Part shown: piece after piece, positions 3,001 to 45,000 of the stretch
How positions within the stretch are numbered: position 1 is the first letter of the stretch
Layout: each line of letters opens with the position of its first letter
DNA from: Octopus sinensis
Lineage: Eukaryota
Length of the DNA stretch: 64,000 nt
Assembly: GCF_006345805.1 (NCBI RefSeq)
Contig: NC_043010.1
Coordinates: forward strand, 47,616,001 to 47,680,000
Reading direction: 5' to 3'
Position numbers: made by a program

Positions 3001-6000
3001 ACATAAGCTCAATATTGTTTAAAATCAAAACTAAATATTTTTTAAAGCATATAAAACAGGTTTTGAACATAAAATGTTTTTTTTATGCTTATAAACATAA
3101 AATATGCTTTTATATACATATATGAGATAGTATCAAAAAGTTCCTGGACTAGTTAATTCTCTTTTTAATAAACTCAGGAATTTCTTTCAAAATTCTTCTA
3201 AGTGAACTTAGGATTTACTTATAGGACTAGGAATACAATTGCAGATCTGTCTATGTGTTCAAACATACATACATTATATATATATAATATATATATATGA
3301 CACTCAGCTGTAGAAATGAGTTGCGACGTCACAGGTGCCAAGCTGTATTGGCCCCTTTGCCTTTCCCTTGGATAACACTGGTGGCGTGGAGAGGGGAGGC
3401 TGGTATGCATGGGCGACTGCTGGTCTTCCATAAACAACCTTGCCCAGACTTGTGACTAGGAGGGTAACTTTCTAGGTGCAATCCCATGGTCATTCATGAC
3501 CGAAGGGGGTCTTTACCTCTTTTATATATATATATATATATATATATATATATATGTATGTATATATATATATATATATAGTGTAGACAGAGTTAGCAGT
3601 TATAATAACCAACTAAGGGATAAAATATCCTTGACAATCAATGCTAGTGTGTTTACGTCCCTGTAACTTGACGGTTTGGCAAAAGAGGCCGATAGAATAA
3701 ATACTAGGCTTACAAAGAATAAGTCCTGGGGTCGATTGCTCGACTAAAGGTGGTGCTCCAGCATGGCCACAGTCAAATGACTGAAACAAGTAAAAGAGAG
3801 AGTAATATATTTATGTATATATATATATATGTATATATATATATATATATATAATATATATATATATATATATTATATATATATATATATATATATATAT
3901 ATATATATATGACACGTAAAAGTCACCTGTGCTGATGACATGTACAAGACACCCTGAGCACTCTGTAAAGTGGTTGGTTTAGCAAGGGCATCCACAAACC
4001 AATATTTACATGCTATTATTTATAGCTTTATCTGCTTCAAGTCTCCCCCTTCCAGAAAAAGAATGTATATATAATATACCCACTCTGTTACCTTATATAC
4101 GGGTGCCTGGTTTTCTGACTCATGAAAATTTGCTGGATATTGTCTGTCTGTCTATCTATTTCTGTTTTCTTTCTTCTTTCTTTCTTTCAACTTCACTACT
4201 CATTTTAAATTATACCACACACACACACACCACACATGCCCACTAAGGTTACATCATTCAACAGTTAAAACAATGTGAAGCACATTGTGATTATTAATTA
4301 TAGCGTTGGGCTTATAATCACAAGGTTGTGAGTTCAATTCCCAGACTGTGATGTGTGTTGTGTTCTTGAGCAAGACACTTTATTTCTTGTTGCTCCAGTT
4401 CACTCAGCTGTAGAAATGAATTGTGATGTCACTGGTGCCAAGTTGTATCAGCCTTTGCCTTTCCCTTGGACAAAATTGGTGGCATGGAGAGGGGAGGCTG
4501 GTATACATAGGCGACTGCTAGTCTTCCACAAACAAGCTTGCTCAGACTTTTGCCTCAGAGGGGAACATTCTAGGTTCAATCCCATGGTTATTCATGACCA
4601 GGGGTGGAGGCATTGCTTTATCCTATATATTCTCACCAGAGTCACATAATTAAGTTTAATTGTATACTAACAATAACAAAAGTAATTTAAAGTGTCTTAT
4701 AATTAATTAAAAAATTTTTTTTTTTCTAGATTTGAAACCTAAGTTGGCTCAAGTATCCTCGGAACTATCCAGAACTGAAAAGTTAGCCAATAGTACCACT
4801 TTTCTCCAAACCCATATTTTTGAATTCCTGTCCAACAGAACCAAATATATAGCTGAACTGAAAGAAACCACTGCTGAGCTTGAACTTATTCTGAATAAAA
4901 TTGAGACCTTGAATAATTTGGCAGAAAAAGTTCTTGCAGATGAGGACAATTTAAGAAAGCTCCTGGAAAAGAGGAAGAAAGAAAAAGAGAAGCGAATGAA
5001 AAAAGACGAAAAGAAGGCGAAGAATATGACTGGGAAAAAGAAGAAACCAAAGGGAAAGAAAAATGATAAACAGCGAGACAGATCTGAGGCATCAGGTGGG
5101 AAGCGTAAATCAAAGGTAAACACAACTGAAGAGGATGAGGATGAGTATGATGAGGATGGTGATGATGATGGTGGTGTAGATGTGGTACCTCCCATCAGAA
5201 ATAAAAAGAGAAAAAAGGAAAGAGATGAAATTAAAACAGAATCGGAAAGTGATGTGAGTCTTGGAGATGGGAAGAATTTAGGTAGTAAAGGAAACAGGAA
5301 GAAAGCTGATAAACATTCTGGCAGAAACGGGAATTCAGTGATTGTAAATAGACAAGATAAAAAGGTCAATGGACAAAGAAAGAGAGGTAAAAGTGATGTA
5401 AGCGAGAAGGAAGATGAGATTGAAGGAGAGAATAGAAAAGGGAAGAAAAGGAAGAAAGAAAGTAAAGGGAAAAGTGATGTAAAGAAAAAAGTTGAGGTGG
5501 AGGAAAAGAATGAAAAGGTGAAAAAAAAGAAACCACATGAAAAAGATGAAAAGGAAAATGACAAGATTGGTGGCAGTAAGGATAACAAGGAAGAAAATTG
5601 GTTGGATGTTTGGGAAGATTTGGTAAACTTTGAAAATATGGTCAGAAAGAACGAAAGCCTAAAATTGGTAAGTGAAGAAACAAGTAGCAAAAAATCCAAT
5701 AAAGCTGAACTTGAAAGAAAAACAACAAAAGATGAAAATAATGACAGGGAAGAAGTTTTGGTACTTAAAAAAGATGATTGGAGCAATAAGAAGAAGAATG
5801 GTAATGAAAAAAATGAAGGTAAAGATACTAAAAGCAAGAAAAGGAAAAGCAAGAGAAGGAAGGACATGAACAAGACAGAAAGTAAGGAGAAGGGTGGCAG
5901 TTCTAACACCAAGAAAGAAAATTGGTTAGATTTGTGGGAAAATTTGATAGAGTCTCAAGAATTGTTGAAGAAAGGTGGAAGTGAAGATTTAAATAGAAAT

Positions 6001-42000: not shown

Positions 42001-45000
42001 CAACTATATATATATATATATATATATATATATATATATATATAATATTATAGGCATAGGCATGGCCGTGTGGTTAGAAGCTTGTTTCCTAAACACATGT
42101 AGTCCCGCTGCGTGGAATCTTGGGCAAGTGTCTTCTACTATAGCCTTGGGCCGACCAAAGCCTTGTGAATGGATTTGATAGACGAAAACTGAAAGAAGCC
42201 ATTATATATATATCAATCAATACAGAGCAAATAATTCATGAGAAAATATTCACGAAGATATCATTGACTCTATTATTATCTAGTGTAACCCATTAGCAAT
42301 CGATGCTAGATGTGTCAAAATCTATTCAATTTGATGGCCAAATATTTTCATTAATTTTAACTAAACACTTTGAAACTTCGGATATTGGTAGAATGTATGA
42401 CACAGAATAGGGATTGCTCTTAATGTTTTTAACAAAATTTTGTATTTTAGAAGTTATTTCGTGTTAAACTTATCGTATTTAGTTAATATTAACCAATCAA
42501 TGATGTGTATTCAGCTGAAGAAAATTAGTGCTGCTGTATTATATACATGTATATATATGTATATTATATATATATATGTATATATTAAATAATATTTATA
42601 TCATCATCATCGTTTAACGTCCATTCTCCATGCTAGCATGGGTTGGACGGTTCGACCGGGGATCTGGGAAGCCAGAAGGCTGCACCAGGCTCCAGTCTTA
42701 TCTTGCAATGTTTCTACAGCTGGATGCCCTTCCTAACGCCATATATATATATATATATAATATATATATTAAATATATTTCTACTATATATACTAGCATG
42801 GAAAGCGGATATTAACCCTTTAGTGTTCACATTATTCTACCAAAATTAATGCTTTTTTATCCACATTGTTTTGAACTAATCATGCATTATCTTGTAGCTA
42901 TGAGATTTTGATGAGGTAGCTGTTAATTTTTAAAACGATATTGTAGGGTTGGTGTGAGAGACCAGATCTGGCCAGTTTGAACATAAAACAGGCAGAATAC
43001 TTTTGGCCAGATATGGTCGGTTTAAATGCTAAAGAGTTAAATGATGATGATGATGATGATATATATATATATATATGTATGTATATATTATATATATATG
43101 TATGTATATATTATATATAGACACTTGTGAAGACCTGTTGAGGCAAGTGAAAACCAAAACAAATCAAAATAGATGAACATCAATGGAATTTGTATCTTTG
43201 TGGTACCAGTGCTGGTGGCACGTGGCACGCAAGAAAACCATCCGAACGTGGCCGTAGCCAGTACCGCATCGACTGGCCTCCGTGCTGTGGGCACGTAACA
43301 AACACCATCCGATCGTGGCCGTTTGCCAGCCTCATCTGGCACCTGTGTCGGTGGCACATAAAAACACCATCCGAGCGTGGCCGTCTGCCAGCCTCGTCTG
43401 GCACCTGTGTCGGTGGCACATAAAAAACACCATCCGAGCGTGGCCGTTTGCCAGCCTCGTCTGGCACCTGTGTCGGTGGCACATAAAATCACCCACTACA
43501 CTCTCGGAGTGGTTGGCGTTAGGAAGGGCATCCAGCTGTAGAAACACTGCCAGATCTGACTGGACTGGTGCAGCTTTCGGGCTCCCCAGACCCCAGTTGA
43601 ACCGTCCAACCCATGCTAGCATGGAAAGCGGACGTTAAATGATGATGATGATGATGATGATGATGATATGTATGTATATATTATATATATAAATATTTAT
43701 ATATTATATATATATGTATATATTATATGTGTATATTATATATTGGGTTGGCAACTAAGTTCCCGCCGTTTTTTTTTAATTTAAATTTTTTAAAAAGTGG
43801 GATAACGAGTAAAAATTTTATCCCTAATTTTATGGTTATAGAACTTAGCTGTTCTTTCTAGTGTGTTGAATCCCACAAGTAGATTCCTTGTGTGTTTAAA
43901 TGTACACTGTATTTTATGACTAATACATAGTCTTTGGACTAAATTTTTACACGTTAGGCCACTGGAAATGATAATTTTAATTAATTTCCATTTCCCTTTG
44001 ATATAATTAGGTATTCAAAGTTTTTGGATAATTTTCGGTTTTTAAAAGTTGGCATTTTTTTATTGCCGGTGAAGGGCTGTGTCTGCGCAGTAGATTTTGA
44101 AGAAAATAGGATGTATAAACAAGAGGCACATAGTTTGATCGCCTCGTGTTTATATATTTAATCTAAGGTGTACCTGTTGAAGACGATTTCACCTAGCTGG
44201 TAAAAGTTATTTACTTGCTAAACAAAAATCAGAAACAAATTGGTCCAGGAAACTAGATGGTGAAATGTTTTTATTTTCTCATTTCGTTCCTGTCGAATTT
44301 TATCCCTAATTTTGTGGTTATAGAACCTAGCTGTTCTTTCTAGCATGTTGAATTCCACGAGTGGATTCCTTATGTGTTTAAATGTACACTTTATTTTATG
44401 ACATATATATATATATATATATATATTATGTATATATATATATATGTATATATATTATAATATATATATATATATATATATATATATATATATATATATA
44501 TATATATAATATATATATATATATTATATTATGTATATATATATTATATATATGTATAATATATATATATAATATATATATATATATTATATGTATATAC
44601 ATATTATATATGTGTATATATATATTATATATACATGTATATATGCATATACACACACATACACAAGCACATACATACACTCACACACATATATATGTAA
44701 AATTTTTTGTTTTTTGTTTTGCAGATTGCTTGATTTGAGAAGACTTGGAATTTCTAATCAAATAGATGTTTGCAGTAAACCTATTGGAGCCTAATCATGC
44801 CAGTTGTTTTTTTGCTGCTGCTCACAACAACTACTACTTCTACTACCACTACCACTACCACTACCACTACTACTACTACTACTACTACTACTACTACTGT
44901 TATTATACAATCTTCCATTCATCAACAGCTTCTCGAGACTGATCTACAGGAAAACTTTGATAGATAAACCGACAAAAATATGTTTAACTTGTGACCAGAA

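What the first reader, a model, noticed from the sequence alone, without database searches (positions are those of the whole stretch)
4730..44794. Atypical laminin alpha-like protein that ends after only three LG domains
Seen: phase-consistent exons give coiled coil, a domain II-like end, LG1, LG2 and LG3, then TAA at 44792-44794. CFAP43 ends 2.4 kb downstream on the other strand and no further LamG-like exons were found. Established: laminin alpha chains carry LG1-5; LG1-3 bind integrins, LG4-5 bind heparin and dystroglycan, and vertebrate alpha3/alpha4 lose LG4-5 by proteolysis. Inference: this is a genomically truncated, divergent, possibly lineage-specific laminin alpha paralog or novel extracellular matrix protein.
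Basis: partly seen in the sequence, partly recalled or inferred. Interest (0 to 1): 0.8.

Follow-up and report, generated by a model that had tools for sequence, protein, structure and literature searches.

The report
Short laminin-alpha-like gene in octopus
This octopus gene encodes a secreted protein that keeps only the rod and the first three end domains of a laminin alpha chain, and because relatives in scallops and other animals end the same way, the short ending is natural rather than a truncation.

Summary
On the + strand, 16 AG/GT-bounded, phase-consistent exons (1-85 to 44725-44794) give one open frame of 1224 codons ending at TAA 44792-44794. CFAP43 ends 2.4 kb away on the other strand. 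No further LG-like ORF lies anywhere in the window.

The gene is 97-98% identical to an Octopus vulgaris 'hypothetical protein' of 1902 aa with the same end. It belongs to a family of about 19 cluster representatives. Named members are octopus and three scallops. All complete members stop 0-47 residues after the match through LG3 (one 89).

Profile comparison, a solved-structure search, an AlphaFold model and a tree place the family as a separate lineage derived from the laminin alpha long arm (coiled coil plus LG1-3). It has no LN, LE or L4 short arm and no LG4-5.

So this is neither a recent truncation nor a gene private to this genome. It is a conserved variant that I did not find described. 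How it assembles and which receptor it binds are untested. It lacks the aromatic pair through which classical alpha chains contact gamma.

The parts
1..85 (+). Exon, cut by the window start. It encodes the acidic '...ENGFEFVDGDE...' motif (family motif D/E-F-x-F) and has a donor GT at 86.
   Evidence: tblastn of P0002 residues 684-713; sequence and splice site
2271..2360 (+). Exon at the start of the second coiled-coil segment
   Evidence: tblastn of P0002 711-743; AG/GT sites and phase
4730..6445 (+). Large exon of 571 full codons. It holds coiled-coil sequence at both ends and a cephalopod-specific Lys/Glu/Arg/Asp-rich insert of about 460 residues (K 21%, KRED 50% over the exon; net charge +47 in the core).
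   Evidence: ORF and splice sites. 98% identical to O. vulgaris and 85% to O. bimaculoides, with gaps that keep the frame.
9623..9786 (+). Exon for the C-terminal end of the alpha-type coiled coil ('...QLRMNISQIQYKIHLARTLLSAMK'). It lacks the coil-end Cys that 18 of 20 family rows have.
   Evidence: family HMM E 2.8e-11 and 1.3e-4 without cephalopods; alignment to laminin alpha1 5mc9_A; Cys column
10880..26451 (+). LG1 in four exons: 10880-11026, 18474-18607, 22421-22571, 26333-26451
   Evidence: family HMM E 2.2e-13, 3.1e-10, 1.1e-5, 1.4e-10; splice sites; AlphaFold model and fold search
26792..34526 (+). LG2 in four exons: 26792-26936, 29259-29384, 31595-31752, 34421-34526
   Evidence: family HMM E 8.3e-16, 8.5e-9, 2.3e-6, 1e-10. 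Pfam Laminin_G_2 on the ortholog at 1580-1704, E 2.7e-22. Sub-threshold Pfam hit on exon 29259-29420.
36562..44794 (+). LG3 in four exons: 36562-36696, 38164-38300, 40773-40964, 44725-44794. The last includes the stop TAA at 44792-44794, six codons after the last Cys of LG3.
   Evidence: family HMM E 2.4e-13, 1e-9, 4.9e-12, 2.0; splice sites; same C-terminus in O. vulgaris P0002
45613..45618 (+). First canonical AATAAA after the stop, a candidate poly(A) signal about 0.8 kb downstream. ATTAAA variants lie at 45001 and 45448.
   Evidence: pattern count only; no transcript evidence
47176..47466 (-). ORF holding the last coding exon of CFAP43, convergent with the gene. Its stop codon is at 47176-47178.
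   Evidence: PDB sequence search: CFAP43 residues 1638-1680 of 1682, E 8.6e-5; sequence
60833..61060 (-). ORF holding an upstream CFAP43 exon
   Evidence: PDB sequence search: CFAP43 residues 1440-1494 of 1682, E 4e-8

Best explanation
What it is. The window holds the 3' two thirds of an intact gene for a secreted protein (codons about 684-1902 of the O. vulgaris ortholog). The protein belongs to a conserved family that I did not find named and that derives from the long arm of a laminin alpha chain. Its layout is: signal peptide; basic region; a first alpha-type coiled coil; an acidic Cys-flanked 'EGSG' segment; a second coiled coil; a laminin-type LG1-LG2-LG3 cloverleaf; and a natural stop just after LG3. 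No member has a short arm (LN, LE, L4) or LG4-5.

How it most likely works (inferred). It is a non-polymerising matrix and cell-adhesion ligand. The coiled coil makes an oligomeric rod. The LG1-3 cloverleaf at its tip engages a cell-surface receptor of the kind that binds laminin LG1-3, namely integrins. Without LN it cannot join a laminin lattice. Without LG4-5 it lacks the dystroglycan and heparin anchor.

Assembly. I lean, at about 55:45, to a non-canonical assembly (with itself or a dedicated partner) rather than the classical beta/gamma pairing. The family lacks the LG1 aromatic pair that contacts gamma, and it carries its own coil-end and tail Cys pair.

Octopus-specific changes. The octopus version has lost that Cys pair and the tail. 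It has gained a Lys/Glu-rich polyampholyte insert of about 460 residues inside the second coil.

Shown versus inferred. Gene structure, family membership, domain homology and the natural end are shown. Secretion, oligomer state, receptor and any glycosaminoglycan on EGSG are inferred.
For: Gene structure. There are 16 AG/GT exons and one stop at the end.

Ortholog. O. vulgaris P0002 is 1902 aa, has an N-terminal hydrophobic leader and has the same C-terminus.

Family. The representatives search gave 155 hits at E <= 1e-3 and 17 at E <= 1e-30. In 18 rows one collinear match reaches profile position 596 or beyond and leaves 0-31 residues. P0016 and P0018 leave 47 and 89 because the match stops early, but both carry the tail Cys.

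Domain content. Pfam on 14 members gave Laminin_G_2 in 14/14, Laminin_G_1 in 12/14, Laminin_II in 2/14 (weak), and no Laminin_N, EGF_laminin, Laminin_B or Laminin_I. For 13 long hits the figures were EGF_laminin 13/13, Laminin_B 12/13, Laminin_II 10/13, Laminin_I 9/13 and Laminin_N 8/13.

Homology to the laminin alpha long arm.
- hhalign of family against classical alpha gave probability 100%, E 1.1e-54 and 980 columns. Family columns 236-1362 align to alpha columns 1547-2585 of 2993, which is the long-arm coil through LG3.
- PDB by sequence matched only laminin alpha chains below E 1e-4.
- The AlphaFold model (23-row alignment, pLDDT 82.3, pTM 0.76) matches 5mc9_A, 5xau_A/D and 7cec_C at TM 0.52-0.59 over about 600 columns. 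Neurexin matches at TM about 0.25.

Tree. The 19 family rows form one side of a branch with support 100/100, found in 100% of 200 bootstrap trees.

Non-canonical assembly. At the alpha1 Trp2293 column, classical rows have W in 23 and Y in 4 of 27, while family rows have F 6, L 4, A 3, M 1 and so on of 19. At the Tyr2295 column, classical rows have F 19 and Y 5 of 27, while the commonest family residues are P, K, T and S. The role of this pair comes from passages read in PMC5343747. The coil-end Cys is in 18/20 rows and the tail Cys in 17/20. Two rows lack both and no row has only one.
Against: - There is no transcript or protein evidence for this locus. The only hint of expression is a 4942-nt contig behind P0004 in another species.
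- All family members are gene predictions, and most come from unnamed sources.
- Two classical-lineage rows (P0132, P0099) also end right after LG3. Truncated models therefore do occur in such data.
- Exon-level Pfam is almost silent. LG1 and LG3 are recognised only by the family profile, the PDB alignment and the fold.
- Long-arm homology over the coiled coil may be inflated by heptad composition.
- Retention of about 500 residues of alpha-type coil argues for beta/gamma pairing, against my lean.
- In laminins, LG1-3 alone does not bind integrin (PMC5343747, PMC2755686). Receptor binding here is therefore unproven.
- The octopus protein lacks the Cys pair on which part of the non-canonical argument rests.
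Confidence: 0.6

Rival explanations
1. It is an alternative, 'headless' laminin alpha chain. It still joins the ordinary laminin beta and gamma chains through its coiled coil. The result is a rod-shaped, non-polymerising, integrin-binding laminin. That would be the genomically encoded counterpart of mature vertebrate laminin-332 or laminin-411, whose alpha chains have short or no short arms and lose LG4-5 by cleavage.
For: There is collinear profile homology to the whole alpha long arm. The coil-end to LG1 junction aligns residue by residue with alpha1 in 5mc9. The model matches the alpha chains of heterotrimeric integrin-binding fragments best. In laminins, LG1-3 needs the heterotrimer and the gamma tail Glu to bind integrin (passages of PMC5343747; abstract of PMC2755686).
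Against: The LG1 aromatic pair said to be present in all alpha chains and to contact gamma is not conserved in the family. The coil is interrupted by hundreds of non-helical residues: mucin-like in scallop P0008 and Lys/Glu-rich in octopus. A Cys pair unknown in alpha chains is present in 17 of 19 assessable rows. No beta or gamma sequence of this species was available to test pairing.
Confidence: 0.3
2. The three-LG end is an artefact. Under this view LG4-5 exons exist but lie beyond CFAP43, in another scaffold or in unassembled sequence, or the stop is an assembly error.
For: Gene models do get truncated. P0003, P0011 and P0033 end inside LG2 or LG3, and P0132 and P0099 of the classical lineage end after LG3. 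No transcript data were available.
Against: The window has no N. The last exon has a strong acceptor and only two weak internal GT sites. No LG-like ORF was found on either strand in the remaining 19 kb. O. vulgaris has the same end. 20 family rows from deep branches end within 0-89 residues of the match, and 17 of 20 rows aligned share a conserved terminal Cys.
Confidence: 0.03
3. It is a decaying pseudogene copy of a laminin alpha gene that lost its ends.
For: It is highly divergent from classical alpha chains (13% identity in hhalign). It has a low-complexity giant exon. A 72-bp duplicated exon fragment lies in the next intron.
Against: The frame is open over 1224 codons in 16 exons with canonical splice sites. 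The frame of the giant exon is kept between three octopus sequences despite 15% divergence and 4 gap openings. Core LG residues and Cys pairs are conserved across the family.
Confidence: 0.03
4. It belongs to a non-laminin LamG family, for example the molluscan shell-matrix Pif/BMSP/LamG3 proteins or a neurexin-, agrin- or perlecan-type protein.
For: Molluscs have LamG-bearing shell-matrix proteins with charged low-complexity inserts (passages of PMC11291548; passage of bioRxiv 10.1101/2021.11.08.467834). Pfam sees only LamG here.
Against: Pfam found no VWA, chitin-binding or EGF domain in 14 of 14 members. The LG domains follow each other directly after a coiled coil, as in laminin alpha. PDB sequence hits below E 1e-4 are laminin alpha only, with CSPG4 at 0.28. 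Whole-model TM is 0.52-0.59 to laminin against about 0.25 to neurexin.
Confidence: 0.02

Closest known systems
Classical laminin alpha chains (for example mouse alpha1 in PDB 5MC9 and human alpha5 in 5XAU and 7CEC; the 13 long hits of alignment A3)
   Same: They share an alpha-type long-arm coiled coil followed directly by an LG1-LG2-LG3 cloverleaf. The coil-end to LG1 junction is alike ('...AR....[IM]K[IV].V'). LG1 and LG2 carry the same C-terminal disulfide pairs. The homology is collinear.
   Different: The family has no LN, LE or L4 short arm and no LG4-5. Its coil is split by an acidic EGSG/Cys segment and by lineage-specific inserts. The aromatic pair of LG1 that contacts gamma is not conserved. 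It has an extra Cys pair at the coil end and in the tail. It forms a separate 100/100 lineage.
Vertebrate short laminin alpha chains alpha3A and alpha4, and their processed forms (function recalled from general knowledge; PMC3544776 seen as a listing and abstract only)
   Same: The functional end state is alike: a non-polymerising alpha chain whose mature form carries LG1-3 only.
   Different: Those chains still have LE modules, and they encode LG4-5 that is removed by proteolysis. Here both are absent from the gene. The tree gives no evidence of common descent with alpha3 or alpha4. The taxa of the rows are unknown.
Molluscan Pif / BMSP / LamG3 shell-matrix proteins (PMC11291548; bioRxiv 10.1101/2021.11.08.467834)
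   Same: They are mollusc secreted proteins with LamG domains and charged low-complexity inserts.
   Different: Those proteins are defined by VWA and chitin-binding domains. None is found here in 14 of 14 members. They have no coiled coil plus LG1-3 layout.

Membership tests
Classical laminin alpha chain | N-terminal LN domain (Pfam Laminin_N) | tested here: not met
   0 of 14 family members, including the full-length O. vulgaris ortholog, against 8 of 13 classical hits. The window itself lacks the first ~683 codons.
Classical laminin alpha chain | LE (EGF_laminin) arrays and an L4 (Laminin_B) domain in a short arm | tested here: not met
   0 of 14 members against 13 of 13 and 12 of 13 classical hits
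Classical laminin alpha chain | Alpha-type long-arm coiled coil (Pfam Laminin_I and Laminin_II) | tested here: inconclusive
   Pfam gave Laminin_II in 2 of 14 members (best E 3.8e-4) and Laminin_I in 0 of 14. hhalign aligns the family coil collinearly with the alpha coil at probability 100%. Composition may inflate the coil part of that score.
Classical laminin alpha chain | LG1-3 cloverleaf attached to the coil end | tested here: met
   PDB sequence match to 5mc9_A over 1346-1894. The AlphaFold model matches the alpha chains of 5mc9, 5xau and 7cec at TM 0.52-0.59. Both tests used the O. vulgaris ortholog.
Classical laminin alpha chain | LG4-LG5 pair after a linker | tested here: not met
   The stop lies six codons after the last Cys of LG3. 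No LG-like ORF lies elsewhere in the window. Family members leave 0-89 residues after the match, whereas full-length classical rows keep 350-511 residues more.
Classical laminin alpha chain | Aromatic pair in LG1 (alpha1 Trp2293 and Tyr2295) that packs against the gamma chain, said to be present in all alpha chains (PMC5343747) | tested here: not met
   Classical rows are aromatic in 27/27 and 24/27. Family rows have F in 6 of 19 and no W at the first column, and P, K, T or S commonest at the second. Octopus has M and P.
Classical laminin alpha chain | Heterotrimer with one beta and one gamma chain | not testable with these tools
Unnamed 'long-arm-only, three-LG' laminin-alpha-like family (P0002, P0004-P0020, P0022, P0028, P0033, P0154, P0155) | One collinear match from the coil end through LG3 | tested here: met
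   13 of 13 window exons hit in order. 11 of 13 hit with an HMM that holds no cephalopod.
Unnamed 'long-arm-only, three-LG' laminin-alpha-like family | Protein ends shortly after LG3 | tested here: met
   TAA lies six codons after the last LG3 Cys. Family tails are 0-47 residues, and one is 89.
Unnamed 'long-arm-only, three-LG' laminin-alpha-like family | Same side of the family branch in a tree with classical alpha chains | tested here: met
   Tested through the 98%-identical ortholog P0002: 100/100, and 100% of 200 bootstrap trees. The tree is unrooted.
Unnamed 'long-arm-only, three-LG' laminin-alpha-like family | Cys about 36 residues before LG1, paired in occurrence with a Cys in the C-terminal tail | tested here: not met
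   Octopus (window and P0002) and P0007 lack both, while 17 rows have both. It is a derived member in this respect.
Unnamed 'long-arm-only, three-LG' laminin-alpha-like family | Acidic [DE]GS[GA] segment flanked by Cys, and an acidic F-x-F motif between the two coils | tested here: met
   EGSG lies at P0002 residues 575 and 665, upstream of the window. 'FEFVD' lies at window 1-85. My regex found the EGSG motif in 15 of 20 rows.
Pif / BMSP / LamG3 shell-matrix proteins | VWA domain plus chitin-binding domain before the LamG region | tested here: not met
   No such Pfam hit in 14 of 14 members at E <= 0.01. The family definition comes from passages of PMC11291548.

The most novel reading that the evidence does not exclude
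The family is a self-contained laminin-like adhesion protein that needs no beta or gamma chain. In most members the protein's own acidic C-terminal tail (for example '...EMEKDMKPVC' or '...DMAEKPIC') would be held by a disulfide to the Cys near the coil end. This idea rests on the finding that the two Cys are present together in 17 rows and lost together twice. The tethered tail would take over the job of the laminin gamma tail, which offers an acidic residue to the integrin next to LG1-LG2. That would make it a single-gene solution to what laminins do with three chains. Octopus has then abandoned this device and gained a giant basic insert instead.
Probability: 0.1. Interest if true: 0.75.

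Novelty: new variant of a known kind. Interest (0 to 1): 0.5.

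Why it matters
From general knowledge, invertebrates are usually credited with two laminin alpha chains, both with full short arms and five LG domains. A conserved third lineage that keeps only the rod and LG1-3 would add a branch to laminin evolution.

It would also offer a natural 'minimal' integrin-binding-type module. Such a module could show which parts of the coil and LG1-3 assembly are needed for function, and whether beta/gamma pairing can be dispensed with.

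For annotation, these genes should not be named 'laminin subunit alpha-2-like' or 'epi-1', and they should not be treated as truncated models.

Tried and rejected
- Pfam exon by exon gave one sub-threshold LamG hit. It also gave chance hits (TrbL, DUF2207_C, Phage_Coat_A) on intron-derived low-complexity translation, which I disregarded.
- The first AlphaFold run with a 2-row alignment was useless (pLDDT 32.3). It was replaced by a 23-row alignment.
Sources and taxa of the unnamed hits stayed unknown.
- A profile search for names returned only the scallop relatives of the first row.
- Two Atlas look-ups gave one family cluster (55 members, Mollusca known for 1) and otherwise generic LamG clusters. 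They did not show the family's range.
- Complex prediction with three copies of the scallop second coil (P0008 768-955) gave 'no answer'. Score 0.00, the chain's fold was uncertain and the alignment was not used. This is no evidence either way.
- I searched for a missing tail exon. No hit to the family tail positions was found downstream.
- Pfam on 7 intronic or flanking ORFs gave no hits. My impression of a GIY-YIG-like motif in 25480-26046 is therefore untested recall.
- Literature searches found no paper describing this family, and none mentioning XP_014785011, LOC117339075 or LOC132561742. Supplements are closed and may hold such accessions.
- The joined (spliced) model of the window was not sent to any search or fold. 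Exons were searched one by one, and the public O. vulgaris protein stood in for the whole.

Full report
**1. What is in the sequence**

The window has no N and is AT-rich and full of microsatellites. On the + strand I found 16 exons. They are 1-85 (the window starts inside it), 2271-2360, 4730-6445, 9623-9786, 10880-11026, 18474-18607, 22421-22571, 26333-26451, 26792-26936, 29259-29384, 31595-31752, 34421-34526, 36562-36696, 38164-38300, 40773-40964 and 44725-44794.

Every acceptor is AG and every donor GT, and the phases chain. Together the exons make 3675 nt = 1224 codons with a single stop, TAA at 44792-44794. LG1, LG2 and LG3 are each coded by four exons.

I did not send a joined model of the window to any search or fold. 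Exons were searched one at a time, and the public ortholog served for whole-protein tests.

**2. The signal is not chance**

Pfam on single exons is nearly blind. In one search, 1 of 10 exon-bearing ORFs gave Laminin_G_1 (E 0.0036, 18 bits, cut-off 24). One search gave nothing relevant.

One exon (40786-40962) found an Octopus vulgaris protein, P0002. It is 1902 aa, is 97% identical to the exon, and is named 'Hypothetical predicted protein' or 'Laminin G domain-containing protein'. tblastn maps P0002 residues 684-1902 onto exactly these exons and onto the same stop. The first 683 residues lie upstream of the window.

A family HMM hit the 13 exons from 9623 onward in collinear order. Twelve had E <= 1.1e-5 and the short last exon had E = 2. 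The other 35 of 48 listed rows had E >= 6, among 3211 six-frame ORFs. An HMM built without the two cephalopod rows still hit 11 of 13 exons (10 below 1e-3). It missed 31595-31752 and the last exon, and gave one stray hit at E 3.5.

**3. The end is real**

The last exon has a strong polypyrimidine acceptor and only two weak internal GT sites, at 44768 and 44775.

An HMM of LG4-5 from 13 classical laminin alpha chains gave E < 1 only on three known LG2 exons. Downstream of 44794 its best hit was E = 11.

The convergent neighbour is CFAP43. ORF 47179-47310 on the minus strand matches CFAP43 residues 1638-1680 of 1682 (E 8.6e-5). ORF 60833-61060 matches residues 1440-1494 (E 4e-8). Its stop codon at 47176-47178 lies 2382 nt from the TAA. 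AATAAA occurs at 45613. No transcript data could be consulted.

**4. It is a family, and the family ends there**

A profile of the C-terminal parts of P0002 and of a 40%-identical relative P0004 was searched against 1.84 billion representatives. P0004 is 1177 aa and comes from a 4942-nt contig. The search gave 155 hits at E <= 1e-3, 69 at <= 1e-10 and 17 at <= 1e-30.

The top group is of proteins of 1187-1862 aa plus fragments. Each has one collinear match from the coil end through LG3. In 18 rows the match reaches profile position 596 or beyond and leaves 0-31 residues. P0016 and P0018 leave 47 and 89 residues because the match stops early. P0003, P0011 and P0033 are models cut inside LG2 or LG3.

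An Atlas look-up found one family cluster of 55 members, with Mollusca known for 1.

**5. Relation to laminin alpha**

- **Domain content.** Pfam on 14 members finds only LamG models (Laminin_G_2 14/14, Laminin_G_1 12/14, Laminin_G_3 7/14) plus a weak Laminin_II in 2/14. It finds no Laminin_N, EGF_laminin, Laminin_B or Laminin_I. The 13 long lower-scoring hits are classical alpha chains: EGF_laminin 13/13, Laminin_B 12/13, Laminin_II 10/13, Laminin_I 9/13 and Laminin_N 8/13. The first of them shows five LG stretches.
- **Profile comparison.** hhalign of the family against classical alpha gives probability 100%, E 1.1e-54 and 980 columns. Family columns 236-1362 align to alpha columns 1547-2585 of 2993. 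That span runs from inside the long-arm coil to the end of LG3 and leaves about 400 alpha columns (LG4-5) unmatched.
- **Solved structures by sequence.** Only laminin alpha chains match below E 1e-4. They include a collinear match of P0002 1346-1894 to the alpha1 chain of the laminin-111 integrin-binding fragment (5mc9_A, E 1.2e-7). CSPG4 follows at 0.28.
- **Fold.** An AlphaFold model of the O. vulgaris C-terminal 605 residues with a 23-row alignment has pLDDT 82.3 and pTM 0.76. A 2-row attempt gave pLDDT 32. The good model matches 5mc9_A (E 3e-27, TM 0.52), 5xau_A/D (TM 0.55-0.59) and 7cec_C (TM 0.57) over about 600 columns. Alpha-neurexin reaches TM about 0.25.
- **Tree.** In a careful ML tree of 46 rows, the 19 family rows are one side of a branch with support 100/100, found in 100% of 200 bootstrap trees. 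The alignment covered coil end plus LG1-3 with 624 columns. Fragments P0003, P0005, P0011, P0019, P0020 and P0032 were left out. So were all hits whose first match did not span profile positions <=60 to >=350. The tree is unrooted, and rows were picked by similarity to the family.

**6. What differs from classical alpha chains besides the missing ends**

(a) The coil is split by an acidic, Cys-flanked '[DE]GS[GA]' segment and an acidic F-x-F motif. Scallop P0008 has a Thr/Pro-rich stretch of about 300 residues there.

(b) Pulido et al. 2017 (PMC5343747, passages read) state three things. [quoted passage not shown] A Glu third from the gamma1 C-terminus is essential for integrin binding. Beta1 and gamma1 are disulfide-linked at the coil end. 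In my alignment, the first of those columns is W in 23 and Y in 4 of 27 classical rows, against F 6, L 4, A 3, M 1 and so on of 19 family rows. The second column is F 19 and Y 5 of 27 classical rows, against P, K, T and S as the commonest family residues. Octopus has M and P.

(c) A Cys 36 residues before LG1 is present in 18 of 20 rows, and a Cys in the short C-terminal tail in 17 of 20. P0002 (octopus) and P0007 lack both, P0033 is truncated, and no row has only one. In the tree the two losses lie in different subclades.

**7. What is special in octopus**

The tail is cut to 'SKPIGA' and both Cys are gone.

Exon 4730-6445 (571 codons) carries a Lys/Glu/Arg/Asp-rich core of about 460 residues inside the second coil. 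The exon is K 21% and KRED 50%, and the core has net charge +47. It is 98% identical to O. vulgaris and 85% to O. bimaculoides, with 4 gap openings that keep the frame. P0004 has a compositionally similar region. I take it as coding.

**8. How it most likely works**

Gene structure, family membership, domain homology and the natural end are shown. The function is inferred: a secreted, non-polymerising matrix and adhesion ligand whose coil forms a rod and whose LG1-3 tip binds a cell-surface receptor.

Two assembly modes remain open. One is canonical pairing with beta and gamma, favoured by the long-arm homology and by the fact that laminin LG1-3 needs the heterotrimer. The other is a non-canonical assembly, favoured by points 6a-c.

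I lean 55:45 to the second. I could not fetch octopus beta or gamma chains. A homo-trimer job on the scallop coil returned no verdict, which counts for nothing either way.

**9. Novelty**

Seven literature searches found no description of such a family or of the named accessions.

The molluscan Pif/BMSP/LamG3 proteins, which also have LamG domains, are defined by VWA and chitin-binding domains (PMC11291548 passages; bioRxiv 10.1101/2021.11.08.467834 passage). They do not fit.

I rate the finding a new variant of a known kind. It is ordinary as a gene but interesting as a conserved third, minimal laminin-alpha-like lineage.

**Left unchecked:** transcripts, the taxa of unnamed hits, beta/gamma partners, and the closed metagenome and viral contig collections (not needed here).

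Noticed in passing
window 8923-8994 (ORF 8871-9050, + strand): A 72-bp stretch in the intron after the giant exon is 90% identical to exon sequence 4799-4870. Its translation matches P0002 761-789 at 69%. It looks like a small duplicated exon fragment with no usable splice sites.
   Followed up: partly
window 22421 vs 22437: The O. vulgaris model P0002 skips five codons ('RIGRN') that the window can encode from the acceptor at 22421. The distant relative P0004 has the matching 'HRNGQN', so 22421 is probably the true acceptor and the public model is slightly short.
   Followed up: partly
window 12701-13027 and 18324-18473 (+ strand, intronic): The O. bimaculoides model XP_014785011.1 (P0003) carries 'LSFSILPSAIFRASSPVGSR...' and 'IISKLLKKPFSE...' between the coil end and LG1. 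These resemble intronic ORFs of this window. P0003 also lacks the first LG1 exon and stops in LG2. That public model is probably mis-spliced and truncated.
   Followed up: no
family alignment; window 9623-9786 and 44725-44794: The coil-end Cys and the tail Cys occur together in 17 rows and are lost together in octopus and in P0007. This suggests a disulfide or a shared function.
   Followed up: partly
window 25480-26046 (+ strand, intron between LG1 exons): A 189-aa open frame with non-repetitive sequence ('...NVIYSIRCIEGAC...YIGETSRSIAEQI...') reminded me of GIY-YIG modules of Penelope-like elements. That is recall only. Pfam gave no hit at E <= 0.01.
   Followed up: partly
window 37103-37663 and 37872-38435 (- strand, intron between LG3 exons 1 and 2): Two open frames of 186 and 187 aa lie on the opposite strand. 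Neither has a Pfam match. They may be transposon remnants or may be open by composition alone.
   Followed up: partly
e.g. window 7798-7980, 15240-15605, 29901-30005, 31017-31175, 46386-46527 (+); 50749-51078, 53984-54151, 62267-62425 (-): Many copies of one short interspersed repeat are scattered through introns and the intergenic region on both strands. Its translation reads '...SFDCGHAGAPP...'.
   Followed up: no
window 44820-44900 and 45100-45200: A (CTA/CCA)n triplet run starts about 25 nt after the stop codon, and a long (TA)n run follows in the presumed 3' UTR.
   Followed up: no
P0132 (1360 aa) and P0099 (697 aa): Two rows on the classical laminin-alpha side of the tree also end 4-6 residues after the 640-residue coil-to-LG3 window. 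They may be truncated models or independent LG4-5 losses. I did not examine them.
   Followed up: no
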